Shown: positions 3,155 through 55,968 of the stretch, one piece after another
Layout of the letters: each line of letters starts with the position of its first letter
Numbering within the stretch: the first letter of the stretch is position 1
Assembly: GCA_035906055.1 (NCBI GenBank)
Contig: JAMIFV010000013.1
Location: 2,535 to 66,534, forward strand
Origin: Alphaproteobacteria bacterium
GTDB taxonomy: Bacteria; Pseudomonadota; Alphaproteobacteria; Rickettsiales; JABCZZ01
Length of the DNA: 64,000 nucleotides
Direction of reading: 5' to 3'
Notes under the pieces: generated by a model
What the model was told of the DNA's origin: nothing
Database searches by the model: none
Seen by the model: only the letters and a program-made list of their open reading frames with translations
Program-made: the position numbers and the translations under genes

Positions 3155-3174
3155 ATTGGCGATTCCTGAAACCG

Positions 3175-6299: not shown

Positions 6300-6322
6300 T
6301 CGCCTATGGAGCATATAAGCAT

Positions 6323-8629: not shown

Positions 8630-8789
8630 TAAATACCGCAACGGATCGAAAGCCTTCAAAGTAATACTATCATTACATTATGTGGGTGAAATTGCGGGTT
8701 AAAGCACAGTTCATTGTGCTGGTAATGTTTGGATTATAAAGTGTTAGCCTCTAATTGTGAATGCTGGCACCATGTAGGACATAGGACAT

Positions 8790-8862
8790 AGTGATGTGTA
8801 TATTGCACTTCTTGAAAACCTCCCTGTTTTCGCCTCGCTGCAGCGAAACTATGAACAGGCTC
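8790..8862. repeat. family-B repeat, copy B1. The right half is clear and the left half is degenerate.
   Basis: ...cttgaaaacctccctgttttcgcctcgctgcagcgaaactatgaacaggctc aligns with 19885-19940. Confidence 0.6.
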
Positions 8863-8920
8863 TAATATCAGGGGCAATAAAAAAGCTTACTCCTCTGTAA
8901 ACTATGCTTATAATGGCCGC

Positions 8921-9775
8921 ATGGACATTAAACATTTCTTTGACAGCGATACTGCCACCTTCACCTATGTGGTGAGCGACCCTTCCACCGGCAACTGCGC
9001 CATCATCGATTCCGTGCTCGACTACGACATGGCGTCGGGCAGGACGTCCACACGTTGCGCCGATGCGGTGATCGCTTATGTGAAAGCGCAGGGGCTGGAT
9101 GTGCAGTGGATACTGGAAACGCATGTGCATGCAGACCACCTGACCGCGTCGCATTACCTGAAGGAACAGCTGGGTGGCAGGATCGGCATCGGCGAGCATG
9201 TGAAGGACGTGCTGGCGTACTGGGTGCCGCTGCTGAACAACGGGCATGACACCCCGCTCGACGGCTCGCAGTTCGACCACCTGTTCAGGGAAGGCGAAGT
9301 GTTCGCCATCGGCAGCATTCAGGTGAAGGTCATCTACACGCCTGGCCATACGCCCGCCTGTGTATGCTACCATATGGGCGAAGCGGTGTTCGTGGGCGAT
9401 ACCATCTTCATGCCCTATGTGGGCACGGCGCGCACGGATTTTCCCGGCGCCAGCGCGGCCACGCTCTATAACTCCATCCAGAAACTCTATGCGCTTTCCG
9501 ATAACACGCGCATCTATGTCTGCCATGATTACCCCAGGGAAGGCGACAAGGAACAGTGCTTCACCACCATCGCCGAAGAAAAGAAGGCCAACGTGCTGGT
9601 GCATCAGGGCATAGGCAAGGCGGATTATGTGCAGACGCGCAATGCGCGCGACGCGGGTAAACCGGTGCCGCGCTTGTTGCTTCCCTCATTGCAGGTGAAC
9701 CTGCGCGCGGGCGGATTCGGCAAGCCGGAAAGCAACGGCGTTCAGTATATAAAGATCCCGGTCGATAAAGTGTAA
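8921..9775 (+). CDS. MBL-fold metallo-hydrolase
   Basis: THVHADH metal-binding motif. N-terminus FTYVVSD...CAIIDSVLDY is typical of the glyoxalase-II-like family. Confidence 0.85.
   Translation: MDIKHFFDSDTATFTYVVSDPSTGNCAIIDSVLDYDMASGRTSTRCADAVIAYVKAQGLDVQWILETHVHADHLTASHYLKEQLGGRIGIGEHVKDVLAYWVPLLNNGHDTPLDGSQFDHLFREGEVFAIGSIQVKVIYTPGHTPACVCYHMGEAVFVGDTIFMPYVGTARTDFPGASAATLYNSIQKLYALSDNTRIYVCHDYPREGDKEQCFTTIAEEKKANVLVHQGIGKADYVQTRNARDAGKPVPRLLLPSLQVNLRAGGFGKPESNGVQYIKIPVDKV
9727..9757 (+). repeat. direct repeat copy 1 (3' end of the MBL gene, encodes ESNGVQYIKI)
   Basis: About 26/30 identity with 11225-11255. The mismatches fall at synonymous third codon positions. Confidence 0.7.
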
Positions 9776-9810
9776 TTGTTTAATGGCATCGGGGGTTATC
9801 CCCGCTACCA

Positions 9811-11196
9811 TTGCCCGGCTTGCATACGCAAGCATACGTAACGAACGCAAGGATAACCGTAGTGAAGCTCGTAAATGCCCTCCCCGATCGTGACGTTTCA
9901 TTGCCTGCGGTTGAGCAGCAAAGAACCGCAGAGCCTGCGCCGGTGGATAAGGAAGCATTAGAAGCTATTGAGCGCGGCGACCGTATCGTTGTCATTCTGG
10001 GGCGGGCGGGCACCGGTAAAACCACGCTTATACGCTCTGTCATGGAGAACAGTTCTGTTAACCAGGTTGTTGTAGCGCCGACCGGTGTTGCGGCTGTGAA
10101 TGCAGGTGGACAGACCATTCACTCTTTCTTCCGTATTCCCCCGCGGCTGCATAATTTGTCTGAGATACAGCCCCGCAAGGGCGGTGGCCGATTATTCAAG
10201 AACCTCAAGCGGGTCATCATAGATGAAATTTCCATGGTGCGTGCGGATCTGCTGGATGCGGTGGACTATGCCCTGCAAATAAACCGCAAAGACCAGCGGC
10301 CCTTTGGCGGGGTGCAGATGGTGCTCGTGGGGGATTTCCTGCAATTGCCGCCTGTTGTGCGCGGTGATGAAGAGAGTATTCTTTCCGGCAAAGGATATGA
10401 AACCCCGTTTGCCTTCAGCGCAAAATGCCTGCGCAACAATCCTGTTACGTCCATAGAGCTTTCCAAGGTGCACCGGCAGGATAACCCTGACTATATCAAC
10501 CTGCTGGGCAATCTTCGTTCCGGCAATGAACTGGAGGCCACTATCGATGCTTTTAACGCCGCTTGCCTGGGGGGGCACAAACGCGATGCAGCTCCGATTA
10601 TTTTAACCGGTACAAATGCGGTGGCAGATAAACACAATGCCCTGGGATTAAACAGCTTATCCGGTGAAACAACCATTTATGAAGGCGCGATTGAGGGTGA
10701 ATTCAAGTTAGACAAGGACAAGCTGCCCGCGCCTGAATTGCTCGCCCTGAAAGCGGGCGCACGCATCATGATGGTAAAGAACGATATAGCCAGAAACTGG
10801 GTAAACGGTTCGCTTGGAACGATCACCCGTCTGGGAAAGGACCGTGTCTGGGTGAAAATAGACGGTAAAGAGCGGCAGTTCGAAGTTGGAAAGGCGGGGT
10901 GGGAAAATGTTCGTTATGAGTGGGATGAAACCACCCAGCATATTGAAGCAAAAGTGGTGGGCAGCTACTCGCAGATTCCCGTTATACCCGCCTGGGCTTT
11001 AACCATACATAAAGCGCAAGGGTTGACGCTTGAGAATGTGCGCATTGATCTGGAGCGCGGTGCTTTTGTTTCCGGACAGGCATATGTTGCATTGTCCCGG
11101 GCGCGTTCTTTAGAGGGGCTTTCCTTTGCATCCCCGCTCAGGGTTTCGGATATTATCATTGATGCACGGCTGCTTCCCAAAGCACGGCATGATTAA
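9811..11196 (+). CDS. Pif1/RecD-like SF1 helicase (AAA_30/PIF1 family)
   Basis: ILGRAGTGKTT (Walker A), VIIDEISMV (Walker B), LVGDFLQLPPV, TIHKAQGLT, AYVALSRARSLEGL. The start is uncertain: TTG 9811 or GTG about 9860. Confidence 0.8.
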   Translation: MPGLHTQAYVTNARITVVKLVNALPDRDVSLPAVEQQRTAEPAPVDKEALEAIERGDRIVVILGRAGTGKTTLIRSVMENSSVNQVVVAPTGVAAVNAGGQTIHSFFRIPPRLHNLSEIQPRKGGGRLFKNLKRVIIDEISMVRADLLDAVDYALQINRKDQRPFGGVQMVLVGDFLQLPPVVRGDEESILSGKGYETPFAFSAKCLRNNPVTSIELSKVHRQDNPDYINLLGNLRSGNELEATIDAFNAACLGGHKRDAAPIILTGTNAVADKHNALGLNSLSGETTIYEGAIEGEFKLDKDKLPAPELLALKAGARIMMVKNDIARNWVNGSLGTITRLGKDRVWVKIDGKERQFEVGKAGWENVRYEWDETTQHIEAKVVGSYSQIPVIPAWALTIHKAQGLTLENVRIDLERGAFVSGQAYVALSRARSLEGLSFASPLRVSDIIIDARLLPKARHD

Positions 11197-11224
11197 GGCA
11201 TAATTAAAGAAATGGGGGGGGCTG

Positions 11225-11255
11225 AAAAGCAACGGCGTGCAGTATATTAAGATTC
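11225..11255 (+). repeat. direct repeat copy 2 (relic of an MBL-gene 3' end, would encode KSNGVQYIKI)
   Basis: Matches 9727-9757. It is preceded at 11197-11218 by 22 nt identical to 48284-48305, which lies inside family-A copy A6. Confidence 0.7.
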
Positions 11256-11876
11256 TTAATCCATGTTCTCCCGTTTGCGATTTTTGGTGGCGATCGCCTC
11301 GTTCATTATATCCAACTGCCTAAGCGCCTGAGCCGTCAGATCCAACCTCATATGGGCCTCTAATAACCATTTCTCTCCACGTGCAGGGATATTTGCAGTT
11401 GCTTCGAGGCCGTGACGATATAACTCCGACCAACGTTCCAACGTCTCTAAGGCTTGACGGCCTCCTTTATCGGTTAGTGAATTATTCATAAGCGGGCGCA
11501 TAGACGCGTTCATCAATTGCTCGACGGTATCAAGCTTGTTTTGGAATCGTATCAGCAAATCCATATCTTTAATGTGAAAATCATGGGCCAGCGTATCGGT
11601 TTCATTTTTAATATCGACAAGCGTTGTCATTAAGACATGGATAGCAGTAATTGCCTGATCTTCACTGGTGACGGATCGTGCAGCGTCCAAAGCAGAGCAG
11701 TATTGATGAGCGTCACTCGTCGTTTTTTTGAATTGCGCTTCTATATTGTTAAGTCCGTCTCTTCTCTCCGGCGAGACTGATGCCGTTTGATCAAGGATTT
11801 TGCACATTCGGGCTGCAATATTCTTAATTTGCTGCCGGTAAAGCGCCGAAGGTTCATTTAATGATGCAGCGGACAT
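11256..11876 (-). CDS. hypothetical helical protein (orphan, low-GC)
   Basis: Clean 206-aa ORF with no recognisable motif, in an AT-rich context. Confidence 0.5.
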   Translation of the reverse strand: MSAASLNEPSALYRQQIKNIAARMCKILDQTASVSPERRDGLNNIEAQFKKTTSDAHQYCSALDAARSVTSEDQAITAIHVLMTTLVDIKNETDTLAHDFHIKDMDLLIRFQNKLDTVEQLMNASMRPLMNNSLTDKGGRQALETLERWSELYRHGLEATANIPARGEKWLLEAHMRLDLTAQALRQLDIMNEAIATKNRKRENMD

Positions 11877-14660: not shown

Positions 14661-14736
14661 TGGCAGGGGCGACAGGAATCGAACCTGCAACCCCCGGTTT
14701 TGGAGACCGGTGCTCTACCAATTGAGCTACACCCCT
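14661..14736 (-). tRNA. trnW: tRNA-Trp (anticodon CCA)
   Basis: The reverse complement reads AGGGGTGTAGCTCAATTGGTAGAGCACCGGTCTCCAAAACCGGGGGTTGCAGGTTCGATTCCTGTCGCCCCTGCCA. It forms a cloverleaf with 7-bp acceptor stem, CCGGT/ACCGG anticodon stem, GTTCGATTC T-loop and an encoded CCA. Confidence 0.95.
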
Positions 14737-16511: not shown

Positions 16512-16543
16512 TTCTAAATGGTGCCGTAGTAGGGGAGCAGAAA

Positions 16544-16563
16544 GGGGGGAAGCGTTCCCCCTC
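16544..16563. repeat. family-A terminal hairpin module, solo, directly downstream of the efp stop
   Basis: ggggggaagcgttccccctc resembles ggaggggaaacgctttcccctc at 39718. On the minus strand a T-run follows it, which is terminator-like. Confidence 0.5.
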
Positions 16564-17138: not shown

Positions 17139-17221
17139 AAATAGCCTCTTTCAAGAGTGTTCTGGTGTAATTCGGGGGCGCAAACTATCAGAATGGGCTG
17201 TAATTGCAATTTTATTAAGAA

Positions 17222-17318
17222 GGGCGGGCCGCCCCTCTTGCCTCCGGCAATTCATCCCTGCGAGGCCGGAGCCCACGCTCCTCCATGCCTATGGCGTAGC
17301 GGGGGAGGGACGCCCCCG
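17222..17318. repeat. family-A GC-rich palindromic element, copy A1
   Basis: gggcgggccgcccc ... ccctgcgaggccgg..cgctcctccatgcctatgg ... gggacgccccc. Confidence 0.65.
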
Positions 17319-18101: not shown

Positions 18102-18817
18102 GAGACTGCTTCAAAATTCTGCCACGCCTTGCCGCCGCATTCGCCGCGCTATGTATTTCTTCCGTTGCCCATGCGCAGGAGCCTAAACGCCCCACTGTAG
18201 TGGAACTGTTCACGGCGCAGGGCTGCCCGTCCTGTCCCAGGGCAGACAGCATGCTCAAGGACATATCCCAGCATCCTGACTATTTCCCGCTTTCCTTCCA
18301 TGTGACTTATTTTGACGGGGAAGGCTGGAAAGACCCTTATTCTTCAAAGGAAAACAACCTGCGCCAGCGCCGCTACCTGCTGGCTGTGGGCATAAAAGAG
18401 GCCTTTACGCCGCATTTCGTGGTGGACGGCACTATATCCTCTGCGGGCGGGGATGCCGGTTCGCTTGCCAAGGCGATAAAGCAGGCGCAGAACATCGCGC
18501 TGCAGTTTCCGCTTACCGTTAAGGCCGATCAGGCAGGTAACGGGCTGCATGTGACTATCGGCGACGACAAGAACTTCCTGCCAGCCGATGCCGTGCTGTA
18601 TGAGGTGCATTTCAAGAGCAGCACCGTTACGCCCATCCGCGCAGGCGGCAATTCGGGTATTACGTCCGAAAACGTGAATAACGTGCTTTCCTTCTTCAGG
18701 GTGCCGCTTTCCACGCAATATTATGTGCCGATGAGCCGCGTGACCGGCGACGGGGTGGCGTATCTGCTGCACAACAAGGAAGGCCGTATAATGGGTGCGG
18801 CTTATTATATAAAATAA
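18098..18817 (+). CDS. DUF1223-family secreted thioredoxin-like protein
   Basis: Signal peptide. VVELFTAQGCPSCPRAD ... HVTYFD. ATG 18098 overlaps the upstream TGA (ATGA). The ORF track starts at 18080. Confidence 0.75.
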   Translation: MRDCFKILPRLAAAFAALCISSVAHAQEPKRPTVVELFTAQGCPSCPRADSMLKDISQHPDYFPLSFHVTYFDGEGWKDPYSSKENNLRQRRYLLAVGIKEAFTPHFVVDGTISSAGGDAGSLAKAIKQAQNIALQFPLTVKADQAGNGLHVTIGDDKNFLPADAVLYEVHFKSSTVTPIRAGGNSGITSENVNNVLSFFRVPLSTQYYVPMSRVTGDGVAYLLHNKEGRIMGAAYYIK

Positions 18818-18997
18818 ATGGGGGGCACGCTGCCCCCGATTTCGTTCCACGAAATCTCCCCTGCGAGGTCGTCGTGAAGCACTCCTCCGCGCATACGGCA
18901 CCGAAGTTTATTCCAGAGCTTAGCCGTAGGTATGGAGGAGCGAAGCGACGACTCCGCAGGGGAATTTATGCGGAGCATAAAGGGGGCAGCGTGCCTC
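18818..18997. repeat. family-A GC-rich palindromic element, copy A2 (full, two inverted halves)
   Basis: The left arm tcccctgcgaggtcgtcgtgaagcactcctcc pairs with the right arm ggaggagcgaagcgacgactccgcagggga. Terminal hairpins are ggggggcacgctgccccc and gggggcagcgtgcc. It starts 1 nt after a stop codon. Confidence 0.8.
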
Positions 18998-19003
18998 TCT
19001 TAA

Positions 19004-19807
19004 TTAGCTTTGCATCGCTAAATAAGCGAGCAAAGCCCCGCCCAGCGCGATGCGGTACCATGCGAACAGCGTGAAGCCGTGGCGGCTGATGAAGCCCACG
19101 AACCATTTGACCACCAGAAGCGCCGTGATGAACGCGGTTATGAACCCCACGGCGATGAGGGCGAGGTCGTCGCTGCTGAATTCCTTATAGGCCTTCAGCA
19201 GGCTGTAGGCGGTGGCGGCGAACATGGTGGGGATAGCGAGGAAGAACGAAAACTCAGCGGCGGCTTTGCGCTCAACGCCCAGCACCAGCGCGCCCATGAT
19301 GGTAGCGCCGGAGCGGGAAACGCCGGGGATCATGGCGATGGCCTGACAGAAGCCGATAAGCAGGGCGCGCGTGAGCGGCAGGTCATCCAGCGAAGTGATG
19401 ACGGGCACGGGCTTCCATTTCTCAATGGCGAGGATGACGATGCCGCCGATGAACAGCGTGGTGGCGACCACCGGCACGCTGAAAAGGTGCTCGGTAATGG
19501 TTTTGTGAAACAATACGCCCAGCGCCATAGCCGGAAGGAAGGCGGCGATAATGTTAATGGCGAAGCGCTGTTCGGTCTTGCTTGAGGGTATGTTTTTTAT
19601 GGTAGTGAGCAGTTTACCGCGATAGAGCCAGCAGATGGCAAGGATGGCGCCAAGCTGGATGCTGATCTCGAACACCTTGCCCGGCGGGCCTTTGAAATCG
19701 AGAAGCGTTTCCATCATCACCAGATGCCCGGTGGAGGAAATCGGCAGAAACTCGGTAAGGCCCTCGACGAGGCCCATGATCACAGCATCTAAGAGCCTGC
19801 TCATCAT
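19004..19807 (-). CDS. uppP: undecaprenyl-diphosphate phosphatase
   Basis: VEGLTEFLPISSTGHL, ...PGVSRSG..., multi-TM protein. Confidence 0.9.
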   Translation of the reverse strand: MMSRLLDAVIMGLVEGLTEFLPISSTGHLVMMETLLDFKGPPGKVFEISIQLGAILAICWLYRGKLLTTIKNIPSSKTEQRFAINIIAAFLPAMALGVLFHKTITEHLFSVPVVATTLFIGGIVILAIEKWKPVPVITSLDDLPLTRALLIGFCQAIAMIPGVSRSGATIMGALVLGVERKAAAEFSFFLAIPTMFAATAYSLLKAYKEFSSDDLALIAVGFITAFITALLVVKWFVGFISRHGFTLFAWYRIALGGALLAYLAMQS

Positions 19808-19940
19808 ACTCTCTCTACTGCTGCCTGCTGCAAACAGTGACTTTCTGCGATCCGCTACTCATGTACTGACGTGTACACTGCATTGCGGTTCTCAAAAATC
19901 CCTGTTTTCGCTTCGCCGCAGCGAGATTATGAGCAGGCTC
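19793..19940. repeat. family-B MITE-like element, copy B3 (full length, perfect 12-bp TIR)
   Basis: The left end gagcctgctcat (19793-19804) is the reverse complement of atgagcaggctc (19929-19940). The core is ctcatgtactgacgtgtacac. Confidence 0.8.
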
Positions 19941-19948
19941 TAGCATAA

Positions 19949-22846
19949 TCAGCCCGCTGCTTTCTTGATCGCAGGTGCGCGGTCAAGCGTGAGGGCGGCG
20001 TCCAGCACCATCTTCTGCTCTTTTTCGTGCATCCTGGCGTAACCGGCGGCGGGCGACGCGGCTTCGGGGCGGCCCGCATAGCGGATACGCACGTCAGCGC
20101 GGCCTGCTTCTTCCAGCAGGTTGCCGATCTTGGGGCCCATGAAGCGGTATGCGCCCATGTTCTCCGGCTCTTCCTGGCACCATACGACCTCGGCACCCTT
20201 GTAACGCGCGAGCTCGGCGGCAATTTCCCTGGCCGGGAACGGGTAATACTGCTCGGTGCGCACGATGGCGATGTCCTTGATGCCGCGCTTCTCGCGTTCC
20301 TCGAACAGGTCATAGTAGACCTTGCCGGAGGTGAGGATAAGGCGGCGAACCTTTTTATCGTCGAGCTTCTGCGTTTCGGGAATAACGCGCTGGAAACTGG
20401 TGCCCTTGCCGAAATCAGCCAGTCTGGACACGCACAGCTTGTGGCGCAGCAGCGATTTGGGAGTCATCACGATAAGGGGTTTGCGGAACTTGCGGTGCAG
20501 CTGGCGGCGCAGCACATGGAAGAAGTTGGCAGGCGTGGTGCAGTTGACCACCTGCATGTTGTCTTCCGCGCAGAGCTGGAGATAACGTTCCAGCCTTGCG
20601 GAGGAATGTTCAGGCCCTTGCCCTTCATAGCCGTGCGGCAGCAGCATCACGAGGCCGCTCATGCGCAGCCATTTGGCCTCGCCGGAGGAAATGAACTGGT
20701 CGATGATCACCTGTGCGCCGTTGGCGAAATCGCCGAACTGCGCTTCCCACAAGGTGAGCGCCATCGGTTCGGCCAGCGAATAGCCGTATTCAAAGCCGAG
20801 GATCGCCGCTTCGGACAGCGAGCTGTCCACCACTTCGAACTGCTTTTTCGCGCCGATATTGTTCAGTGGCAGGTAGCGTTCCTCGTTGTTCTGGTCCACC
20901 AGCACCGCGTGGCGATGCGAGAAGGTGCCGCGGCCGCAATCCTGACCGGAAAGGCGCACGGGGTAGCCTTCCTTCAGCAGCGAGCCATAAGCCAGCGCTT
21001 CACCGATCGACCAGTCGAGGCCTTCGCCCGATTCCATCATGTTGCGCTTGTTATCCAGCTGGCGCAGGATCTTGCTGTTGGCGGCAAAATTCTCAGGGTG
21101 TCTGGCGAGCGCAAGGCCGATCTCTTTCAGCTTGGCGACATCCACGCCGGTGTCGGACACGGGGTGCTCGCCCTTGGGCTTTTCAAAGCCCGACCAGTGG
21201 CCTTCCAGCCAGTTGGCCTTATTGGGCTTGAAGGTTTTTGCGCCTTCATAGTCCTTTTCGAACTGGCTGCGGAACGCGGCATACATCCCGTCCACCTCTT
21301 CCTGCGGCACGATACCCGCCTTCACCAGCTCGCCGGAATAGAGCCTTGCGGGCATTTTATGCGCAGCGATGGCCTTGTACATGAGCGGCTGGGTGAACAT
21401 CGGCTCGTCGCTCTCGTTGTGGCCGTAGCGGCGATAGCAGAAGATATCCACGACCACGTCGCGCTTGAAGGTGTGGCGGAATTCGGCTGCCAGCTTGCAG
21501 GCGAAATACACGGATTCGGGATCATCGCCGTTGACGTGGAAAATGGGCGCCTGCACCATCTTGGCCACGTCGGACGGGTAGGGGGTGAAGCGCGAATAGC
21601 GCGGGGAAGTGGTGAAACCGATCTGGTTATTGACGATGATATGCACCGTGCCGCCCGTGCGGTAGCCGCGCAGTTCGGCCAGCGAAAGCGTTTCGGGCAC
21701 GAGGCCCTGACCGCAGAATGCCGCGTCGCCATGCAGTAATATGCTCATTACCTTGTCTTTGGTCTCGCGGTCGTCTTTCTGGTCCTGCTTGGCGCGCACT
21801 TTGCCCACAACAACAGGGTTCACCGCTTCCAGATGCGAAGGGTTGGAAGCCAGCGAAAGATGCATCTTCTTGCCGTTGAGCAGCGTGCGGTCGGTGGTGA
21901 CGCCCAGATGGTATTTCACGTCGCCGGAGGAATCGACCCATTCGGGGAAGTCGATATTACCCTGAAACAGGGAAAGCAGCTCCACATAGGGCTTGCCCAT
22001 GATGGTGGTGATCACGTTCATGCGGCCGCGATGCGGCATGCCGATGTTAATTTCTTCCACGCCGAGTTCGGACGAGGTGAGCAGCACGGCCTCAAGGCCT
22101 GCGATGGCGGCGTCACCGCCCTGAATCGAGAAGCGCTTGGTGCTGGCGTATTTAAGCTGGAGGAATTCTTCAAACGATTCCACCTCGACCATGGTCTTGA
22201 GGATGGACTTCTTTTCTTCGAGCGTCAGGTTGGGGCGGGTGCTGCGGTTCTCGATATGTTTCTGGATCCACGCCTTCTGCTCGGGGTACTGGATGTGCAT
22301 GAATTCCACACCGATCTTGCCGCAATAGGTGGAGCGCACGATTTTCATGATCTCGCGCAGCGTGCCATGCTGAAGGCCCAGAACGCCGTCAAGGAAGATG
22401 CTGCGGTCGAAGTCTTTTTCGGTGAAGCCGTACGTGGCGGGGTCGAGTTCGGGATGGTAAGTGGGCTGCTCAAGGCCGAGCGGATCGTAATCGGCCATGA
22501 GATGGCCGCGCACGCGGTAATTGCGGATAAGCATCAGCGCCTGCACGGTATCGCGCAGGGCCTGGTCTATGTCGGCACCTGCTCCCGGGCGAGCACCGGC
22601 AGCGACGGGTTTGCCGCCTTTTTTGTCAGGCGTGGCGCGCGGTTCAACGGATTCGTCCTCGAACCTAGACTTATTATGCGACCAGCTTGGGCGCGTGAGC
22701 GGGTTGGATGCGTTGCCCGCACCGGAGAACAGCGCCTGCCAGCTTGCATCCACACTGGAAGGATTCACCAGCCATTTTTCGTACAGCATCTCGATATAAG
22801 GTGCGTTAGCGGAAAACAGGGGGGAGTTGGCAGGTGCTTCAGTCAT
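19949..22846 (-). CDS. sucA: 2-oxoglutarate dehydrogenase E1 component
   Basis: 965-aa protein with SucA-type N-terminus (NAPYIEMLYEKWL), a TPP-binding region and ..RYGHNESDEP... Confidence 0.95.
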   Translation of the reverse strand: MTEAPANSPLFSANAPYIEMLYEKWLVNPSSVDASWQALFSGAGNASNPLTRPSWSHNKSRFEDESVEPRATPDKKGGKPVAAGARPGAGADIDQALRDTVQALMLIRNYRVRGHLMADYDPLGLEQPTYHPELDPATYGFTEKDFDRSIFLDGVLGLQHGTLREIMKIVRSTYCGKIGVEFMHIQYPEQKAWIQKHIENRSTRPNLTLEEKKSILKTMVEVESFEEFLQLKYASTKRFSIQGGDAAIAGLEAVLLTSSELGVEEINIGMPHRGRMNVITTIMGKPYVELLSLFQGNIDFPEWVDSSGDVKYHLGVTTDRTLLNGKKMHLSLASNPSHLEAVNPVVVGKVRAKQDQKDDRETKDKVMSILLHGDAAFCGQGLVPETLSLAELRGYRTGGTVHIIVNNQIGFTTSPRYSRFTPYPSDVAKMVQAPIFHVNGDDPESVYFACKLAAEFRHTFKRDVVVDIFCYRRYGHNESDEPMFTQPLMYKAIAAHKMPARLYSGELVKAGIVPQEEVDGMYAAFRSQFEKDYEGAKTFKPNKANWLEGHWSGFEKPKGEHPVSDTGVDVAKLKEIGLALARHPENFAANSKILRQLDNKRNMMESGEGLDWSIGEALAYGSLLKEGYPVRLSGQDCGRGTFSHRHAVLVDQNNEERYLPLNNIGAKKQFEVVDSSLSEAAILGFEYGYSLAEPMALTLWEAQFGDFANGAQVIIDQFISSGEAKWLRMSGLVMLLPHGYEGQGPEHSSARLERYLQLCAEDNMQVVNCTTPANFFHVLRRQLHRKFRKPLIVMTPKSLLRHKLCVSRLADFGKGTSFQRVIPETQKLDDKKVRRLILTSGKVYYDLFEEREKRGIKDIAIVRTEQYYPFPAREIAAELARYKGAEVVWCQEEPENMGAYRFMGPKIGNLLEEAGRADVRIRYAGRPEAASPAAGYARMHEKEQKMVLDAALTLDRAPAIKKAAG

Positions 22847-24799: not shown

Positions 24800-24831
24800 G
24801 ATATTTATTCTTTCACTGCGTTGCCGTATAA

Positions 24832-24898
24832 GTGGAGTAGTCTTACACTACGACCCCGCGTAGCGAGGGGGAGCGGTAGCGGGGGCGGTACGCCCCCC
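24832..24898. repeat. family-A element, partial copy A3
   Basis: gtggagtag..acgaccccgcgtagcgaggggg ... gggggcggtacgcccccc. Confidence 0.5.
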
Positions 24899-27473: not shown

Positions 27474-27593
27474 CCCCGCCGCTTGCGGCGTGGAGGAGCC
27501 GAAGGCGACGACCCCTTTAGAGGGGGTAAGCGTTAGCGAAGGGGGATGTCTTCATCCCCCTTACACTTAATACCCCGCCGCAAGCGGCGGGGG
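27474..27593. repeat. family-A GC-rich palindromic element, copy A4
   Basis: ccccgccgcttgcggcg ... tggaggagccgaaggcgacgacccctttagaggggg ... ccccgccgcaagcggcgggg. Confidence 0.7.
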
Positions 27594-39694: not shown

Positions 39695-39856
39695 GGGGCG
39701 CGTTTCGCCCTTTATTGGAGGGGAAACGCTTTCCCCTCTGCGCATCCGCGCATTCACCCCTTGCGAGGTCGTCGCTTCGCTCCTCCATACCTACGGTTAG
39801 GCACTGGAATAAACATCGGTACCGTATGAGTGGATGAATGCTATATGACGCCCCCC
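39695..39856. repeat. family-A GC-rich palindromic element, copy A5
   Basis: ggggcgcgtttcgccc, ggaggggaaacgctttcccctc, gcgcatccgcgc, ccccttgcgaggtcgtcgcttcgctcctccatacctacgg ... Confidence 0.75.
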
Positions 39857-39862
39857 TAAAAC

Positions 39863-48112: not shown

Positions 48113-48318
48113 AAGGGGCGTCCCGCCCCCACTCGTGCATCCGCACTCGTTCCCCCTCTAAAGGGGTCGTCGTGAAGGACTCCTGCGCGCATACGGCATC
48201 GGCTTCTATTCCAGTGCATTGCAATTGGCGTGGAGGCGCGAAGCGACGATGACGCAGGGGAATTTATGCGGAGCATAAATGGGGGCATAATTAAAGAAAT
48301 GGGGGCAGCGTGCCCCCC
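48113..48318. repeat. family-A GC-rich palindromic element, copy A6 (full)
   Basis: Begins 1 nt after the atpC stop. ggggcgtcccgccccc, cgtgcatccgcacg, ccccctctaaaggggtcgtcgtgaaggactcc ... ggaggcgcgaagcgacgatgacgcagggg ... gggggcagcgtgcccccc. Confidence 0.8.
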
Positions 48319-48331
48319 GTAAAAAATATTT

Positions 48332-49348
48332 TTACGCCACCATGCGCGCCGTGTGCTGTACGGCGTGGCTGATGACCAGCGCAGGCGGCGCGGTGCTGGA
48401 TTTCAGCTCGCGTTCGATACGCAGCAGGGCATCCAGCGCCCTGGCGAGCGAGCGCGGCTGCCAGAGCGACAAGGCACGTTTCATCTTTGGCACGTATTTA
48501 AAGAACACCATAGGACGCAGGCTAGATACTGCCTGATCGAGCGGCATGCCGCCCGCCATATTGGCGCGCGCAAGATCCATGCGCTGGAAATGCCTGAGCA
48601 GTGAGCGGATAATGGCTACGGGCTGAGTGCCTTCATGCAGCATGTGCGCCAGAAGCTTCTGCGCCTGCATCAACTCACCGCAAGCCACAAAGTAGCAGAT
48701 ATCGTCCATCGTTTCGGAGGCGTTATAATCGGTAAGCAGCAACGCATGCTGCAATGTCACTTCTTTTTCGTCGCCCATATAGATGGCAATTTTGGCGAGC
48801 TCGTTATGCGTGACGCCGCGGTCATTGCCGAGATTACCCGCGAGGTAACGCATGGCATCGGGCGCGATGCCGAGGCCATAGCCCTGCAATGTGGTGCGTA
48901 TCACTTCGTCCAGCGTGCGGCCCTCGTCGCGGTAGCAGGGCAGTGCTGCCAGCGCGTCGGTGCGCTCGAACAGCCCGCGCAGCGATGACGTGCCGGAGAG
49001 TTCATCCGCTTCCACGATGAGGTAAGCGGAGAGGTTTTTGCTCTCCATGGCATCGTTGATGATGGGGGTAAGCTTGTCGGTGCCGTCCTGCACGATCACC
49101 ACGCGCTGCCCGCCCATGAGGCCGAGGGCGCAGAGTTCGTCCATCAGCAGCGCCGGGTCTTCCTTCAACCTGTCGGCGGAAAGCTCAATGCGGTTGAGGG
49201 GATCGGATTTCGGCCCCAGCATATGCGCGGTAATATGCTTGCTGCGCTCGCGCACGAGGCCGCTGTCAGGCCCGTACAGCAGCGTGGCTTTGGTCTTCTG
49301 GCCGGGATTCTTAAGAAAAAGCTCAATATCCTTAGTGGTCAGCTTCAT
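48332..49348 (-). CDS. holA: DNA polymerase III delta subunit
   Basis: LLYGPDSGLVRE..., size and position after lptE. Confidence 0.85.
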   Translation of the reverse strand: MKLTTKDIELFLKNPGQKTKATLLYGPDSGLVRERSKHITAHMLGPKSDPLNRIELSADRLKEDPALLMDELCALGLMGGQRVVIVQDGTDKLTPIINDAMESKNLSAYLIVEADELSGTSSLRGLFERTDALAALPCYRDEGRTLDEVIRTTLQGYGLGIAPDAMRYLAGNLGNDRGVTHNELAKIAIYMGDEKEVTLQHALLLTDYNASETMDDICYFVACGELMQAQKLLAHMLHEGTQPVAIIRSLLRHFQRMDLARANMAGGMPLDQAVSSLRPMVFFKYVPKMKRALSLWQPRSLARALDALLRIERELKSSTAPPALVISHAVQHTARMVA

Positions 49349-49872
49349 GGCGTGACCGGCTGCTTGCCCGCCAGGTAACCGGAAAGGCGCAACACGTAGT
49401 CTTCCGCCAGTTCCCTGAGCAGGCGTTCGTTCAGGTTGTCCTCGGCTTCGTAGGTGGCGAAGTTGGCGTTGGGCACCACGTTATAGCTGCTGGTGCGGCG
49501 GATGGTGCCGGTGAAGGGTTTTTCCTTCGTGTTATTGGGCGTGAGGGTGAAGTTGGTATCGAACTTAACATTGTAGCGCAGGATAGTGCCGTCACTGCGC
49601 ACGATGGAAGGCACCAGCGTGCGGGCGAGTTCCACCTGAAGCGTGTAGTCGGGTTTGTCTTTCACCGTACCCTGCGGGTTGAGGCGGTCTTCCAGAGACG
49701 CGCGCAGCACCTGAGCGAACCTGCCGCCACCGATGGGCGCCACAATCACGTTGCCCTGCACGATGGAAGCGTTTTCGGCCCTGGTGGCCGCATCGCCGTA
49801 CATCGGCTGGAAACCGCAACCGGCAAGGGAGAATGCAACCACAAGGATTAACGCATTAAGCCGCGACAACAT
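49345..49872 (-). CDS. lptE: LPS-assembly lipoprotein LptE
   Basis: Lipobox [12 protein letters not shown], conserved leuS-lptE-holA order. ATG 49872 overlaps the leuS 3' end by 17 nt. Confidence 0.8.
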
Positions 49873-52570
49873 TGACGATTTTCCCCGGCACCACGATGAT
49901 TTTTTTGATCTGCTTACCTGCCAGGGTATCCTGCACATTCTTCTGGGAAAGCGCAAGCGATTCGAGCGCCTCTTTGGTGGCGTCATGTGCGGCTTTGAAG
50001 GTGGTGCGCAGCTTGCCGTTGATCTGCACGGCGATGGTGATCTCATCGTCCTGACAAAGCGCGGGGTCGGCTTTCGGCCAGGGGGTGCTCAGCAAGGTCT
50101 GCTTATGGCCGAGCAGCGCCCAAGCTTCTTCGGCAAAATGCGGGATGAACGGTTCGGCAAGGCGCAGCAGCGCTTCGAGCGCTTCCTTAAGTACAGGCGT
50201 AAGAGGCGAGGAGCGGGGAAATTCCTCGTTCGTGCCTCGTGCCTCGTTTCTCGCTACTTCCTCTATGACATTGGAAAGCTCGCGGATGCGCGCGACGGCC
50301 TTATTGAAATGGAAGTTCTCGATATGGCGGGTCACGTCGTTGATGGCTTTATGGGTCACGCGGCGAAGACCAAGCGTTGCTTCATCGGTCGCGGTGGGCG
50401 TGGCGGGCTGGCCGGTGATGACGGGCGCAAGGGTCTGCACCAGTTTCCACAGACGGTTGATGTAGCGCCATGCGCCGTCGATCCCGGCATCCGTCCATTC
50501 AAGGTCGCGGTCGGGCGGGCTGTCGGAAAGCATGAACAGGCGTGCCGTATCCGCGCCATAGGTTTCGATGATATGCCTGGGGTCCACCGTATTCTTTTTG
50601 GACTTGCTCATTTTTTCCGAGCGCCCAACCGTCACGGGCTTGCGCGTAGTGACATGCACGGCACCCGCGCCTTCCTTCACCACTTCGTCGGGCTGCAGCC
50701 ATTTACCGTCAGCGTCTTTATACGTCTCGTGGCAGATCATGCCCTGCGTCATCAGGCCGTTGAAGGGTTCGTCCGGCACGTTATAACCGCAAGCTTTGAG
50801 CGCGCGCGTGAAGAAGCGCGAATAGAGCAGGTGCAGAACCGCGTGTTCCACGCCGCCGATATACTGATCCACCGGCAGCCAGCGTGCCACGGCATCGTTT
50901 ATCGGTTGCGTATCGGGCAATGAGCAGAAGCGCGCGAAATACCATGACGATTCGAAGAACGTATCGAACGTATCGGTTTCGCGTTCTGCTTTTTTGCCGC
51001 AGGTGGGGCAATTCACATGTTTCCATGTGGCATGGCGGGCGAGCGGGTTGCCGGGCGTGTCGAAGGTCACGTCTTCCGGCAGTTTCACCGGCAGGTCTTT
51101 TTCAGGCACGGGCACAGCGCCGCAATCGTTGCAATAGATGATGGGAATGGGGCAGCCCCAGTAACGCTGGCGCGAAACGCCCCAGTCGCGCAGGCGATAG
51201 TTCACCTTGGCTTCGCCCATGTTCTTTTTGGCGAGTTCGGCAACGGCTTTTTCTTTGGCTTCATCGGAGGTGAGGCCGTTGAGGAACCCGGAATTGATCA
51301 TCGTGCCGTCGCCGGTATAGGCTTCCGCGCTTACATCGCCACCGCTGACCACGGGCAAAATGGGTTGGTTATATTTTTTGGCGAAGTCATAGTCGCGCTG
51401 GTCATGCGCGGGGCAGCCGAAAATGGCGCCGGTGCCGTAATCCATGAGCACGAAATTGGCGACGAAGAGTTTTACCTTGCGGTCTTCAAACGGATGCTGG
51501 ATCTCAAGGCCGGTATCAAAGCCTTTCTTTTCGGCTTTCTCTATCGCTTCTTCGCTCGTGCCGATGCGGTTGCATTCGTCGATGAAGGCTGAGAGTTCGG
51601 AGTTCAGAGTTCGGAGTTCAGTTGCAATGGGGTGGTTAGGAGAGATGGCACAAAAACTCATGCCAAAAAGTGTATCCGGCCTCGTAGTATAAATTTCCAA
51701 TTTAATGGGGAAAACGCTTTCCCCGCCTGCGCTGCGCGCAGTCTCCCCTTGCGGGGTCGTCGCTACGCTCCTCCACGACTCCGGCGAAATCTGTAAAATC
51801 ATTTTCGCGCCGACGGACTTACCTATCCATCTGTCCTGCATGATGCGGACCTTATCCGGCCAGTTCTCCAGCGTGGAAAGTCCCTGCAAAAGATCTTCAG
51901 CGAACTGCGTGATACGCAGGAACCACTGCGAGAGTTTGCGGCGCTCAACAAGCGCACCGGAGCGCCAGCCGCGCCCTTCGATCACCTGTTCGTTGGCGAG
52001 CACGGTATGGTCCACCGGGTCCCAGTTCACGTCGGCTTCCTTGCGGTAGGCGAGGCCAGCCTTCAGGAAATCGAGAAAGAATTTCTGTTCGTGCCTGTAA
52101 TACTCAGGGTCGCAGGTGGCGAGCTCGCGCGACCAGTCGTAAGACAGTCCTATGGTCTGCAACTGTTCGCGCATACTGGCCATATTTTTATATGTCCATT
52201 CGCGCGGATGCACATTGCGCTCTATCGCGGCGTTCTCGGCGGGCAGGCCGAACGCGTCCCATCCCATCGGGTGCAGCACGTCGAATCCGCAGCCCATTTT
52301 GTAACGCGCCACCACATCGCCCAGCGTGTAGTTGCGTACATGCCCCATATGGATGTTGCCCGACGGATAGGGGAACATCTCCAAGACATAGTATTTTTGT
52401 TTGTGGGGCACGCTGCCCCCGCTCGTGCTTTGCACTCGTTCGCCTGCGGGGTCGTCGCTGACGCTCCTCAGCCCATCCGGCGAAGCTTTAAAGCTGTTGT
52501 TATCTCTCCAGAAACGTTGCCATTTCTGTTCCGACTCGCGGAAGTTATAACGTGTATTGGCATCACTCAT
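49856..52570 (-). CDS. leuS: leucine--tRNA ligase, carrying two in-frame family-A repeat insertions
   Basis: [15 protein letters not shown] (HIGH), TTRPDT (editing domain), KMSKSKKN (KMSKS). Confidence 0.95.
51705..51790. repeat. family-A half-element, copy A7, in frame inside leuS (about residues 261-289)
   Basis: ggggaaaacgctttcccc gcctgcgctgcgcgcag tctccccttgcggggtcgtcgctacgctcctcca is nearly collinear with intergenic copy A5 (39718-39790). Confidence 0.75.
52403..52485. repeat. family-A half-element, copy A8, in frame inside leuS (about residues 29-57)
   Basis: ggggcacgctgccccc gctcgtgctttgcactcgtt cgcctgcggggtcgtcgctgacgctcctca is collinear with the left halves of A2 and A6. Confidence 0.75.
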
Positions 52571-54650: not shown

Positions 54651-55235
54651 CTAATTGCTGGCGCTTTTTTTGTAGGATGAGAACTGTCCCAGCCTGCGGC
54701 GCAGCGCAACAGGCAGCAGTATATGCGACAAGGTGCGCATCCTCGGCGATTGCGCCATATCCCATACGAGCCTACGCAGCCCGGTATGTGCCGGATTTCT
54801 GTGCGTTGTCCGCCCGCCGGATTCAACCGTTTCATACAGCCGGGTTATTTCTTTCTGAAAATCTTCCACCGGCACCATCGCCTTCATATTGCAGATGGTG
54901 CAATATTCATCGAGCTTGCCGGTGAGCAATTCGTGGCGCAGATTCTGCGCCGACTCACTATTATAAACCTCTTCAAAGCTGCTGTTGGTCACATTGCCAA
55001 GCTCCACGAACGAAAAGCAGCACGGGCGCACGCGTCCGTCGCCCAGCACCTGCGCGAAGGTCCACGGATCGGTGCAGGAGCGCGTGTACCCGGCTTTGAG
55101 CGGCTTTACGTAGCTGCTCCTGTCGCCGCCCTGCACGTTCTTCTGCGCGTCCTTCCGGGCTGCGGGTTCTGCATCAGGCGGCAAGGGCATGGCTGCATTC
55201 CTTCTCAAACTGGTCAAGGCGCGGCAGGAAATCAC
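54651..55235 (-). CDS. SPASM-domain fragment, probably the C-terminal part of a frameshifted radical SAM/SPASM gene
   Basis: CTDPWTFAQVLGDGRVRPCCFSFVELGNV...EEVYNS...LR..L..G....YCTIC is the SPASM Cys pattern. The ORF overlaps the upstream rSAM ORF in another frame. Confidence 0.55.
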   Translation of the reverse strand: MISCRALTSLRRNAAMPLPPDAEPAARKDAQKNVQGGDRSSYVKPLKAGYTRSCTDPWTFAQVLGDGRVRPCCFSFVELGNVTNSSFEEVYNSESAQNLRHELLTGKLDEYCTICNMKAMVPVEDFQKEITRLYETVESGGRTTHRNPAHTGLRRLVWDMAQSPRMRTLSHILLPVALRRRLGQFSSYKKSASN

Positions 55236-55968
55236 CCGGCAGGCTGAGCGTCATGCCGTGGGCCTCGGCGAAAGCGATGGCTGCGCGCGTATCGCGAATC
55301 GCTTTATGTGCGGCATCGCCCTGCAATTTCCAGACCGGGGTTACGTTATTGGCGATATTGTCGTATTCCAGCAGGTCCTGCAGGCCGAACATGGATGCGT
55401 TCAGCGAAGCGGCATAGGCGGCCACATCCGCAAGCCCGGCGGTGATCTCGGCGTAATAGACGGCGGAGATGATCCATTCCGGCTCCGTTATGCGCAACCG
55501 TCTGGAAGCGGTTTTGATCTGCATGATATTGTATGTGATCGTACGGATGTCTACGGCTTTGCGGTATTGTTTCAGCGCCTGCTGGTCTACCGTATCTATG
55601 CTGATGGTCAGCATCTGGAACCGGGCGAACACTTCCGCTTCTTCAGGTGTGAGCACCTTGCCCAGGTTGACCGTTGCGCGCAGCGGTATGCCGGAATCGA
55701 GCATCCTGGTGCACTGGCCCGCCCAGCCGGGCGCCATGATGAGGTCGCCGCCGCCGGTAAGATTGATATAGGGTGGCTTGGTATGGCGAAAATATTCCAT
55801 CACATGCGCGACCATCTGTTCGGACATGAAGCGCGTAGGCTCGAAATCCGGACGGTTCTGGTGGCAATACACGCAGCGCAGATTGCATTTGTCGGTGAGC
55901 TCCAGCACAAAATTCGCCATGTGCGCGGGGGTCGCTTTCAGAAATTTCGTATCTATTTCCATATGCAT
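55174..55968 (-). CDS. radical SAM core domain protein (N-terminal part)
   Basis: ELTDKCNLRCVYCHQ is the CxxxCxxC cluster. INLTGGGDL is the SAM-binding GGE-like motif. Confidence 0.7.
   Translation of the reverse strand: MHMEIDTKFLKATPAHMANFVLELTDKCNLRCVYCHQNRPDFEPTRFMSEQMVAHVMEYFRHTKPPYINLTGGGDLIMAPGWAGQCTRMLDSGIPLRATVNLGKVLTPEEAEVFARFQMLTISIDTVDQQALKQYRKAVDIRTITYNIMQIKTASRRLRITEPEWIISAVYYAEITAGLADVAAYAASLNASMFGLQDLLEYDNIANNVTPVWKLQGDAAHKAIRDTRAAIAFAEAHGMTLSLPGDFLPRLDQFEKECSHALAA

What the first reader, a model, noticed from the sequence alone, without database searches (positions are those of the whole stretch)
52403..52485. Family-A repeat inserted in frame in leuS just upstream of the HIGH motif
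About 83 nt inside leuS are collinear with the left halves of intergenic copies A2 and A6. The shared modules are the hairpin ggggcacgctgccccc, the segment gctcgtgc.ttgcactcgtt, and the core cctgcggggtcgtcgc...gctcctc.

The ORF stays open through this segment. The encoded peptide is ...[45 protein letters not shown].

From memory, LeuS orthologues go almost directly from the N-terminal helix to the (K)xYVLDMFPYPSG strand. If so, this is about 27 extra residues. That is the behaviour described for Rickettsia palindromic elements, which are selfish DNA tolerated within essential protein-coding genes.
Basis: partly seen in the sequence, partly recalled or inferred. Interest (0 to 1): 0.8.

Follow-up and report, generated by a model that had tools for sequence, protein, structure and literature searches.

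The report
Selfish palindromic repeat inside leuS
An 81-base unit of a dispersed hairpin-rich repeat sits in frame in the essential leucyl-tRNA synthetase gene, adding 27 codons in a predicted disordered loop. This is the behaviour known from Rickettsia palindromic elements, here in an uncultured alphaproteobacterium that carries a second copy in the same gene.

Summary
Window 52403-52483 (81 nt, LeuS residues S30-H56) is one unit of a modular palindromic repeat family. A profile built only from intergenic copies finds it at E=6e-9. The same profile finds a second 81-nt copy inside leuS at 51707-51787 (residues S262-P288, E=2e-10).

Orthologues at 80% and 79% protein identity outside the insert have an empty site 1. 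All solved LeuRS structures skip both segments. AlphaFold2 gives pLDDT below 50 for residues 32-55 and 272-286. The ORF and the flanking conserved blocks are intact.

The two copies read the repeat core in different frames (DDPAGE and TTPQGE). The peptide is therefore a passenger and not a conserved domain.

The two closest relatives carry a copy at exactly the same junctions, but of the other hairpin subfamily. Between those two relatives the insert is the single best-conserved 81-nt window of the gene (97.5%, against 61% identity at 4-fold sites). This points to concerted evolution or re-insertion.

Related genomes carry further in-frame copies: three in another leuS and one in hemF. Other lineages carry their own repeats in the same two LeuRS loops.

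Verdict: a real, tolerated, selfish REP/MITE-like insertion. It is a new member of a known kind (Rickettsia palindromic elements, intragenic REPs). Interest is moderate.

The parts
52403..52483 (-). Site-1 repeat unit: 81 nt, 27 codons, LeuS S30-H56 ([27 protein letters not shown]). It lies 17 residues upstream of the HIGH motif (H74-H77).
   Evidence: ORF translation. nhmmer E=6.4e-9 with a profile built from intergenic copies only. Empty-site alleles L123 and L124. pLDDT below 50 for residues 32-55.
52405..52419 (.). Hairpin H1 of the site-1 unit (GGGGCACGCTGCCCC).
   Evidence: Exact matches at 18822 and 48301. Three H1 pairs show compensatory changes across copies, GC/AU, CG/AU and AU/GC.
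52425..52435 (.). Hairpin H2 of the site-1 unit (GTGC-TTT-GCAC). This is the hypervariable stem module.
   Evidence: Folds of individual copies. 6 of 7 pairs have changes on both sides, and 86% of cells are paired against 65% in shuffles, on a hand-registered alignment.
52451..52469 (-). Conserved core. The sense strand reads GAGGA-GCGTCAGC-GACGAC and contains a GCGNNAGC mini-hairpin motif. The extra base here is the +1 half of a compensated frameshift.
   Evidence: Alignments. Motif definition in PMC13037366.
51707..51787 (-). Site-2 repeat unit: 81 nt, 27 codons, LeuS S262-P288 ([27 protein letters not shown]). It lies in the hairpin loop at the entry to the CP1/editing domain.
   Evidence: nhmmer E=1.7e-10. 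78% identity to 39720-39796. Absent from L001 and L002. PDB alignments break between residues 261 and 290. pLDDT below 50 for residues 272-286.
49856..52570 (-). leuS host gene, 904 aa. The ORF is intact, and the HIGH and KMSKS regions are conserved.
18820..18997 (.). Full palindromic dimer: two inverted units, tail to tail. It fills the spacer between the convergent genes DUF1223 (ends 18817) and bacA (ends 19004).
   Evidence: DNA fold -61.7 kcal/mol, z=-9.3. Pfam assignments.
48115..48318 (.). Second dimer, lying between atpC (ends 48112, plus strand) and the ORF 48332-49348 (minus strand, no Pfam hit; holA position by synteny in L159/L160).
39720..39858 (+). One unit followed by a degenerate second arm, between convergent genes.
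24821..24897 (-). Diverged single intergenic unit.
   Evidence: nhmmer E=1e-4. Sequence.
27482..27560 (-). Diverged single intergenic unit.
   Evidence: nhmmer E=1.4e-5. Sequence.
17221..17298 (+). Diverged single intergenic unit.
   Evidence: nhmmer E=3e-3. Sequence.
16533..16561 (-). Fragment consisting of the H1 module only, downstream of efp.
   Evidence: nhmmer E=0.02. Sequence.

Best explanation
Window 52403-52483 is one 81-nt unit of a non-autonomous, REP/MITE-like palindromic repeat family. The unit is modular. Read on the leuS sense strand it contains, in order:
- a CC-G(T/G)A(G/T) tag;
- the core GAGGA-GCGNAGC-GACGAC;
- a CCCC-loop-GGGG hairpin;
- a hypervariable hairpin H2;
- a GGGG...CCCC hairpin H1.

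Intergenic copies occur singly or as inverted dimers between convergent genes. One unit landed in the loop between the N-terminal helix and strand beta-1 of LeuRS. A second landed in the loop at the entry to the editing domain.

Shown: each copy is 27 codons long, has no stop codon, and encodes a Gly/Ser/Pro/Asp/Arg-rich peptide in a loop that is absent from insert-free orthologues and predicted disordered. Inferred: the copies survive for these reasons, the segment is translated, and the enzyme stays functional.

The peptide itself is not selected. Different copies read the core in different frames, and the site-1 copy carries a +1/-1 pair of compensating indels.

The intragenic copy does not evolve simply vertically. 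It tracks the repeat family, most likely through gene conversion from other copies, less likely through re-insertion at the same point.

The hairpins are kept by compensatory change. This reflects either selection for mobility or templated correction of quasi-palindromes.
For: - Family membership is significant with a profile that excludes the leuS copies. There are about 10 copies in 64 kb.
- Site 1 is empty in L123 and L124, whose LeuS is 80% and 79% identical to the window protein outside the insert. It is filled with identical junctions in L001 and L002/L003, which are three independent assemblies. This excludes an assembly artefact.
- Solved LeuRS structures lack both segments. AlphaFold2 gives pLDDT below 50 exactly at 32-55 and 272-286.
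- Frames differ between copies: [10 protein letters not shown] at site 1, [10 protein letters not shown] at site 2, and EERSDDLAG in hemF of L132.
- There are further in-frame copies elsewhere: three in leuS of L159, one in leuS of L161, and one in hemF of L132. The hemF copy interrupts the PDB alignment between residues 142 and 173.
- Concerted evolution. Between L001 and L002 the insert is 78/81 identical and is the top-ranked of 2542 sliding windows. The gene-wide identity is 81% and the 4-fold-site identity is 61% (binomial p=6e-5 and 8e-14). Against either relative, the window's site-1 copy is only 74-78% identical and ranks 1715 and 2177 of 2636. The window's site-2 copy is 88% identical to the site-1 copy of L001.
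- Hairpin covariation is seen in H1 and H2. The dimer folds with z=-9.3.
Against: - Translation of the segment and activity of the enzyme are inferred only.
- Only 64 kb of the genome was available, so a second leuS cannot be excluded.
- No transposase for the family was found in the window. Pfam scans of 59 ORFs found only a phage-type integrase.
- No target-site duplication or exact pre-insertion sequence can be defined, because the loop is variable.
- Site 1 is also occupied by family-A copies in more distant lineages (L159, L161). The age of the insertion and the number of events are therefore unresolved.
- The H2 alignment was registered by hand, and templated hairpin correction could mimic selection.
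- The very high conservation between L001 and L002 could instead mean nucleotide-level function.
Confidence: 0.8

Rival explanations
1. The intragenic copy is functional and not merely tolerated. It would act either as an mRNA or DNA structure (for example a translation pause or regulatory hairpin) or as a recruited flexible LeuRS appendage, and it would be kept by purifying selection.
For: Between L001 and L002 the insert is the most conserved 81-nt window of the whole gene, more conserved than the catalytic motifs. The hairpins covary. The same two loops hold repeat-derived segments in many lineages. All seven intragenic family-A occurrences seen lie in the same orientation relative to the host gene.
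Against: - The peptide is read in different frames in different copies.
- The segment is predicted disordered.
- The single unit folded as RNA is no more stable than shuffles, z=-0.7.
- The closest relatives P0004 and P0005 and most orthologues do without it.
- The window's own copy has diverged strongly from those of L001 and L002.
- There is no Rfam match.
Confidence: 0.1
2. The shared site-1 occupancy results from independent, site-directed insertions of different subfamilies at the same point in each lineage, that is, a target hot spot. Under this reading there was no single ancestral insertion followed by gene conversion.
For: The window copy and the L001/L002 copies belong to different H1/H2 subfamilies. 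More distant lineages (L159, L161) also carry family-A units in this loop, while intervening lineages are empty. Other repeat families occupy the same loops in other lineages.
Against: The junctions in the window, L001 and L002 are identical to the base on both sides. Independent insertion would then require exact targeting, and earlier precise excision if copies were replaced. No target motif or duplication is evident. Survival only in permissive loops explains the recurrence without any targeting.
Confidence: 0.15
3. The segment is not part of a working protein. Either leuS here is a pseudogene or a misassembled gene, or the segment is skipped by frameshifting, bypassing or splicing.
For: None directly. 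Translation has not been observed.
Against: The 904-codon ORF is uninterrupted, with conserved blocks on both sides of both inserts and invariant catalytic residues. The same architecture occurs in three other independent assemblies. The window LeuS is 88% identical to P0002 and P0003 outside the insert, which is incompatible with decay.
Confidence: 0.03
4. The resemblance is chance or compositional. On this reading the segment is an ordinary lineage-specific LeuRS loop.
For: The loop is naturally variable in length among orthologues.
Against: E=6e-9 against a profile that excludes the segment. Exact 16-nt module matches exceed every shuffle. The module order is collinear.
Confidence: 0.01

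Closest known systems
Rickettsia palindromic elements (RPE; Ogata et al. 2000 and 2002, as summarised in PMC10969869 and PMC1166351)
   Same: These are short palindromic selfish repeats of an alphaproteobacterium. They are found both between genes and in frame inside housekeeping genes, with the ORF kept open. Some genes are hit twice.
   Different: - The host is not Rickettsia. The window is 54.7% G+C and carries genes such as PHB depolymerase, and the best named LeuS relatives are only MAGs at 67% identity or less.
- The unit is 81 nt with three or four small hairpins, and it also forms inverted dimers.
- Copies are translated in at least three different frames, whereas the review states that each RPE encodes a conserved peptide.
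- Sequence relatedness to RPE families could not be tested.
Intragenic REPs, GTAG- and CGTC-tagged (Di Nocera et al. 2013, PMC3733652), and REPIN doublets
   Same: These are hairpin repeats with subfamilies that differ by complementary stem changes. They occur as inverted dimers, lie preferentially between convergent or unidirectional genes, and are occasionally wholly inside ORFs. The paper reports such cases in tRNA synthetase genes of the alphaproteobacteria Erythrobacter litoralis and Sphingopyxis alaskensis. A GTAG-like tetranucleotide sits at one end of several units here.
   Different: - Classical REPs are 20-40 nt with a single stem-loop.
- Here the tag is exactly GTAG in only 3 of about 11 units (the others are GTAT, GGAG, GGAT or ATAG).
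- CGTC-family features are absent: an 8-9 bp stem starting with AT, a 4-5 nt loop, and a CCA tail.
- No RAYT gene lies in the window.
Bacterial MITEs carrying ORFs that fuse in frame (ERIC, Correia, Nezha and Anabaena MITEs, QMITE1; review PMC10969869)
   Same: They are small, non-autonomous, structured elements that can create in-frame fusions.
   Different: No terminal inverted repeats bounded by a target-site duplication were seen. The single 81-nt unit is not itself a terminal-inverted-repeat element.

Membership tests
Rickettsia palindromic elements (RPE) | Dispersed short palindromic repeat present in many copies in the genome | tested here: met
   About 10 copies in 64 kb, including two long palindromic dimers.
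Rickettsia palindromic elements (RPE) | In-frame insertion in housekeeping ORFs with the reading frame preserved | tested here: met
   Two 27-codon inserts in leuS. Related copies in leuS of L159 and L161 and in hemF of L132.
Rickettsia palindromic elements (RPE) | Each family encodes a conserved peptide, always read in the same frame | tested here: not met
   The core is read as DDPAGE, TTPQGE or EERSDDLAG in different copies.
Rickettsia palindromic elements (RPE) | Nucleotide homology to the RPE-1 to RPE-10 consensus sequences | not testable with these tools
   No RPE sequences or Rickettsia genomes were reachable.
Rickettsia palindromic elements (RPE) | Host is the genus Rickettsia | tested here: not met
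   54.7% G+C. The closest named LeuS proteins are from 'Rickettsiales bacterium' MAGs at 63-67% identity, and Telmatospirillum at 61%.
GTAG-tagged REP / REPIN (RAYT-mobilised) | Terminal GTAG tetranucleotide next to the hairpin | tested here: inconclusive
   CC-GTAG occurs in the units at 18997R and 39720 and in L159 site 1. The other units have GTAT, ATAG, GGAG or GGAT at the same place (sequences).
GTAG-tagged REP / REPIN (RAYT-mobilised) | Unit of 20-40 nt with one stem-loop | tested here: not met
   The unit is about 81 nt with H1, H2, a CCCC/GGGG hairpin and a core mini-hairpin.
GTAG-tagged REP / REPIN (RAYT-mobilised) | Inverted doublets that fold into a long hairpin | tested here: met
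   Dimers at 18820-18997 and 48115-48318. DNA fold z=-9.3 for the first of these, 18815-19000.
GTAG-tagged REP / REPIN (RAYT-mobilised) | Associated RAYT (Y1 transposase) gene | tested here: inconclusive
   No Y1_Tnp or other transposase Pfam hit among 59 ORFs of the window. The rest of the genome was not available.
CGTC-tagged REP (Di Nocera 2013) | An 8-9 bp stem starting with AT, a 4-5 nt loop, a terminal CGTC and a CCA tail | tested here: not met
   The description in PMC3733652 was compared with the unit sequences. CGTC occurs inside the core, but no AT-initiated 8-9 bp stem or CCA tail is present.
MITE | Terminal inverted repeats flanked by a target-site duplication | tested here: not met
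   No duplication is seen at the filled versus empty leuS site or at the dimer flanks. The variability of the loop limits the power of this test.

The most novel reading that the evidence does not exclude
The intragenic copies are not passive relics. Inside an essential gene they are continually overwritten or re-targeted by whichever palindromic subfamily is active in the genome. The mechanism would be gene conversion or site-directed insertion into the same two LeuRS loops. Alternatively, they are held by nucleotide-level purifying selection as a functional structure.

This would explain two observations. First, the insert is the best-conserved stretch of leuS between two relatives, yet it has switched subfamily in the window lineage. 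Second, many lineages of this uncultured alphaproteobacterial clade carry their own repeat at both loops.
Probability: 0.2. Interest if true: 0.7.

Novelty: new member of a known kind. Interest (0 to 1): 0.45.

Why it matters
This extends the 'selfish DNA inside essential protein genes' phenomenon beyond Rickettsia. That phenomenon is best known from Rickettsia RPEs. Here it appears in an uncultured, higher-G+C alphaproteobacterial clade, where leuS alone carries two to three copies per genome. In this clade the same permissive LeuRS loops have been colonised repeatedly by different repeat families.

The locus offers a clean natural experiment, with empty, filled and subfamily-switched alleles of one site. 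It can be used to study how palindromic repeats enter proteins, how they are homogenised, and how much foreign sequence an aminoacyl-tRNA synthetase tolerates next to its HIGH motif.

Practically, such inserts inflate protein lengths and create spurious 'lineage-specific domains' in MAG annotation.

Tried and rejected
- **Genome-contig scan.** A scan with the core 19-mer GTCGTCGCTNCGCTCCTCC returned more than 119 loci. None matched the full unit profile. The scan therefore found neither the source genome nor more family-A copies. It did reveal that the core motif is shared with unrelated repeats in many phyla.
- **Metagenome-contig scan.** A longer core pattern gave 34 loci. Only L129 (the same contig as L003) and L132 held near-full units.
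- **Protein searches with the insert peptide.** A 52-aa concatenation found nothing. A 31-aa search of 1.84 billion representatives returned only WD40- and cadherin-like repeat proteins, which are spurious. No conserved protein domain corresponds to the insert.
- **Rfam.** No family matches the element. There were only sub-threshold chance hits.
- **Cluster look-up.** It gave no organism names. The exact protein P0001 is not in the contig index, so the rest of the source genome could not be read.
- **CGTC-REP membership.** Considered because of the GTCGTC core, and rejected on stem, loop and tail features.
- **Third lineage-specific LeuS segment.** Residues around 770-790 have no repeat match in the window.
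Full report
**What is there**

leuS occupies window 49856-52570 on the minus strand and encodes 904 aa. The flagged stretch is real. The peptide [45 protein letters not shown] is in the ORF. By codon counting, the repeat-coded part is S30-H56, which is window 52403-52483: exactly 81 nt. It lies 17 residues before the HIGH motif (H74-H77).

GGGGCACGCTGCCCCC has exact matches at 52405, 18822 and 48301, with 7 hits at 3 or fewer mismatches against 1.2 expected. CCTGCGGGGTCGTCGC has 6 hits against 0.9 expected. A multiple alignment shows the same module order in all copies.

As an unbiased test I built an nhmmer profile from five intergenic half-units only. It finds 52405-52482 at E=6.4e-9. It also finds a second copy inside leuS at 51709-51785 at E=1.7e-10, plus weaker intergenic copies at 27482-27560, 24821-24897, 17221-17298 and 16533-16561.

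The second intragenic copy is also exactly 81 nt (51707-51787). It encodes S262-P288 ([27 protein letters not shown]). No other part of leuS is repeated in the window.

**Anatomy of the family**

Read on the leuS sense strand, a unit contains the following, in order:
- a CC-G(T/G)A(G/T) tag;
- the conserved core GAGGA-GCGNAGC-GACGAC;
- a CCCC-loop-GGGG hairpin;
- a hypervariable hairpin H2 whose loop is usually TCC;
- a GGGG-N-CCCC hairpin H1.

H1 shows three pairs with compensatory double changes. On a hand-registered alignment of nine copies, H2 has changes on both sides in 6 of 7 pairs. There, 86% of cells are paired against 65% in shuffles (0 of 500 shuffles reach this) and 22-56% when the partner is slid.

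Two inverted units form long palindromes at 18820-18997 and 48115-48318, each between convergent genes. The first, folded as window 18815-19000, forms single-stranded DNA at -61.7 kcal/mol, z=-9.3.

The core heptamer GCGNAGC is the 'extraordinarily stable DNA mini-hairpin' motif. That motif is defined as GCGNAGC or GCGNNAGC (PMC13037366). The site-1 copy carries the GCGNNAGC form (GCGTCAGC).

No Rfam family matches the element. None of the 59 window ORFs scanned has a transposase domain, apart from a phage-type integrase at 1661-2776.

**Is it an insertion?**

LeuS orthologues were retrieved, aligned and placed on a neighbour-joining tree. Ten of them have only 9-12 residues between the conserved F27 and Y60, against 32 here. 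These are P0004, P0005, P0012, P0014, P0015, P0036, P0045, P0066, P0078 and P0109.

The DNA of P0004 (L123) and P0005 (L124) shows a clean empty site. These proteins are 80% and 79% identical to the window LeuS outside the insert, and they are the next branches out from the window clade.

The closest relatives carry a unit at site 1 with junctions identical to the base. These are P0002 (L001) and P0003 (L002 and L003, from two further independent assemblies). They lack the site-2 unit.

PDB LeuRS sequences from Neisseria, E. coli and Thermus align only from residue 55-56 onward. The alignments break again between residues 261 and 290.

An AlphaFold2 model has mean pLDDT 75.6. It places pLDDT below 50 exactly at 32-55 and 272-286, between confidently modelled secondary-structure elements.

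**The peptide is a passenger**

Site 2 reads the core as [10 protein letters not shown]. Site 1 reads it as [10 protein letters not shown]. The difference arises because site 1 has one extra base in the mini-hairpin loop and one base fewer about 20 nt downstream, a compensated frameshift.

A related unit inside hemF on metagenomic contig L132 reads EERSDDLAG. It interrupts the alignment to solved HemF structures between residues 142 and 173.

Most frames of most units are stop-free because of composition. Being 'open' therefore needs only a length divisible by three.

Searches for the peptide as a protein family found nothing meaningful.

**The intragenic copy evolves with the family**

The three leuS genes (window, L001, L002) are roughly equidistant, at 81-84% nucleotide identity and 61-67% identity at 4-fold sites.

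Between L001 and L002 the insert is 78/81 identical. It is the best-conserved of all 2542 sliding 81-nt windows. The binomial p is 6e-5 against the gene-wide identity and 8e-14 against the 4-fold-site identity.

In contrast, the window's site-1 copy is only 74-78% identical to theirs. It ranks 1715 and 2177 of 2636 windows. It also carries the alternative H1 and H2 alleles: its H1 is identical to that of the intergenic copy at 18822, and its H2 resembles that at 48131.

The window's site-2 copy is 88% identical to the site-1 copy of L001. Both H1 alleles therefore exist in several genomes.

The simplest reading is one ancestral insertion followed by gene conversion from dispersed copies. Re-insertion at a hot spot and nucleotide-level selection are the alternatives.

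**Wider pattern**

Family-A units also sit in frame at three sites of the P0010 leuS (L159 10094-10172, 10792-10836 and 11205-11286), with no copies in the 20 kb of flanking sequence. One more sits at site 1 of the P0009 leuS (L161).

Other lineages carry their own repeats at both site 1 and site 2, judged from similar peptides within one protein in P0006, P0011, P0021 and P0058. P0036 (L160) has three copies of an unrelated 70-nt palindrome inside leuS (family D5).

These LeuRS loops are thus recurrently colonised in this uncultured alphaproteobacterial clade. The best named LeuS relatives are 'Rickettsiales bacterium' MAGs at 63-67% identity, and the window is 54.7% G+C.

**Comparison with what is known**

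The behaviour is that of Rickettsia palindromic elements. These are in-frame, tolerated, selfish palindromes. R. conorii has 44 such insertions (PMC10969869). R. felis has 728 RPEs, 85 of them inside ORFs (PMC1166351).

The behaviour also matches the intragenic REPs described by Di Nocera et al. That paper explicitly lists tRNA synthetase genes of E. litoralis and S. alaskensis (PMC3733652).

Membership is not established for any of these:
- The host is not Rickettsia.
- The conserved-peptide feature fails.
- CGTC-REP features fail.
- GTAG-REP features are only partly met.
- No transposase was seen.

I therefore classify the element as a new member of a known kind.

**Mechanism and confidence**

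Shown:
- the segment is a family member;
- it is in frame;
- it is absent from close orthologues;
- it lies in loops predicted to be disordered;
- copies use different frames;
- its evolution is non-vertical;
- the hairpins covary.

Inferred:
- the segment is translated and LeuRS remains functional;
- transposition proceeds through hairpin-forming single-stranded DNA;
- gene conversion is the homogenising process.

Overall confidence in 'tolerated selfish in-frame repeat' is 0.8.

Noticed in passing
window 51707-51787 (minus strand): A second in-frame 81-nt family-A unit lies in the same leuS gene (S262-P288), at the entry to the CP1/editing domain. The finding does not mention it. It belongs to the other hairpin subfamily and is absent from the closest relatives L001 and L002.
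   Followed up: yes
loci L004-L122 (genome contigs) and L125-L158 (metagenome contigs): The core motif GAGGAGCG-N-AGCGACGAC, which contains the GCGNAGC DNA mini-hairpin, recurs inside otherwise unrelated repeat families of many phyla. It is usually flanked by a short inverted repeat. One example is tgtcattgcga-GGAGGAGCGAAGCGACGACG-tcgcaat in Chloroflexi, Omnitrophica, Saprospiraceae, CPR and Planctomycetes. There are also distinct Streptomyces, Actinoplanes, Polyangiaceae and Myxococcales families. None matches the full family-A profile. The reason for the shared motif is unexplained.
   Followed up: partly
L132 6868-6948, within ORF 6443-7420: A family-A unit is inserted in frame in hemF (oxygen-dependent coproporphyrinogen oxidase). 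It lies on the same JGI contig (Ga0206875_1011) as the P0010 leuS and is read in a third frame (GTPEERSDDLAGGRARSVSGGSVLP).
   Followed up: yes
L159 10094-10172, 10792-10836, 11205-11286: The P0010 leuS (about 70% identical to the window protein) holds three family-A units or fragments in frame. The 20 kb of flanking sequence holds none.
   Followed up: partly
L160 10715-10784, 11132-11201, 12152-12221: The leuS of MAG GCA_020054105.1 (P0036) carries three in-frame copies of an unrelated 70-nt palindrome (GTCGTTAGTC...GACTAACGAC; peptide ...SLVVS...LTTKD). The intergenic spacers of that locus are full of a different palindromic repeat with an 8-nt period (GAAATGAGGAACTGAAGAA).
   Followed up: partly
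L161 575-649: The site-1 unit of the P0009 leuS has an extra perfect hairpin (agaatctgc-gcaa-gcagattct) nested where the core mini-hairpin normally sits.
   Followed up: no
window 18820-18997 and 48115-48318: In both dimers the central heptamer of the core is inverted in the left arm relative to its flanks (GTCGTCG-TGAAGCA-CTCCTCC against GGAGGAG-CGAAGCG-ACGAC). As a result both arms present GAAGC on the same strand. In the long hairpin this would form a symmetric purine-rich internal loop.
   Followed up: partly
window 36-11876: A likely mobile or defence island. It contains an HTH protein, a phage-type integrase (1661-2776), a NACHT NTPase (3828-6299), a KAP-family P-loop NTPase (6323-8629), a metallo-beta-lactamase-fold protein and a PIF1-like helicase (9811-11196). 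A tRNA gene lies at 14664-14736.
   Followed up: no
window 8816-8864 and 19894-19942: A different 49-nt repeat, 86% identical between the two copies (AAAnnTCCCTGTTTTCGCYTCGCYGCAGCGA...). The 19894-19942 copy lies in the spacer between bacA (19004-19807) and sucA (19949-22846); the context of 8816-8864 (between the KAP NTPase and metallo-beta-lactamase ORFs) is also non-coding by the ORF map. It is not related to family A.
   Followed up: no
window 54651-55968 (minus strand): A radical SAM domain ORF (55174-55968) and a SPASM domain ORF (54651-55235) overlap by about 60 nt in different frames. This may be a frameshifted or split maturase gene.
   Followed up: no
window about 50200-50262 (LeuS residues about 770-790): A third lineage-specific LeuS segment ([21 protein letters not shown]) is absent from P0002 and P0003. 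It has no repeat match in the window. P0004 and P0013 carry a longer, mutually similar insert at the same place.
   Followed up: partly
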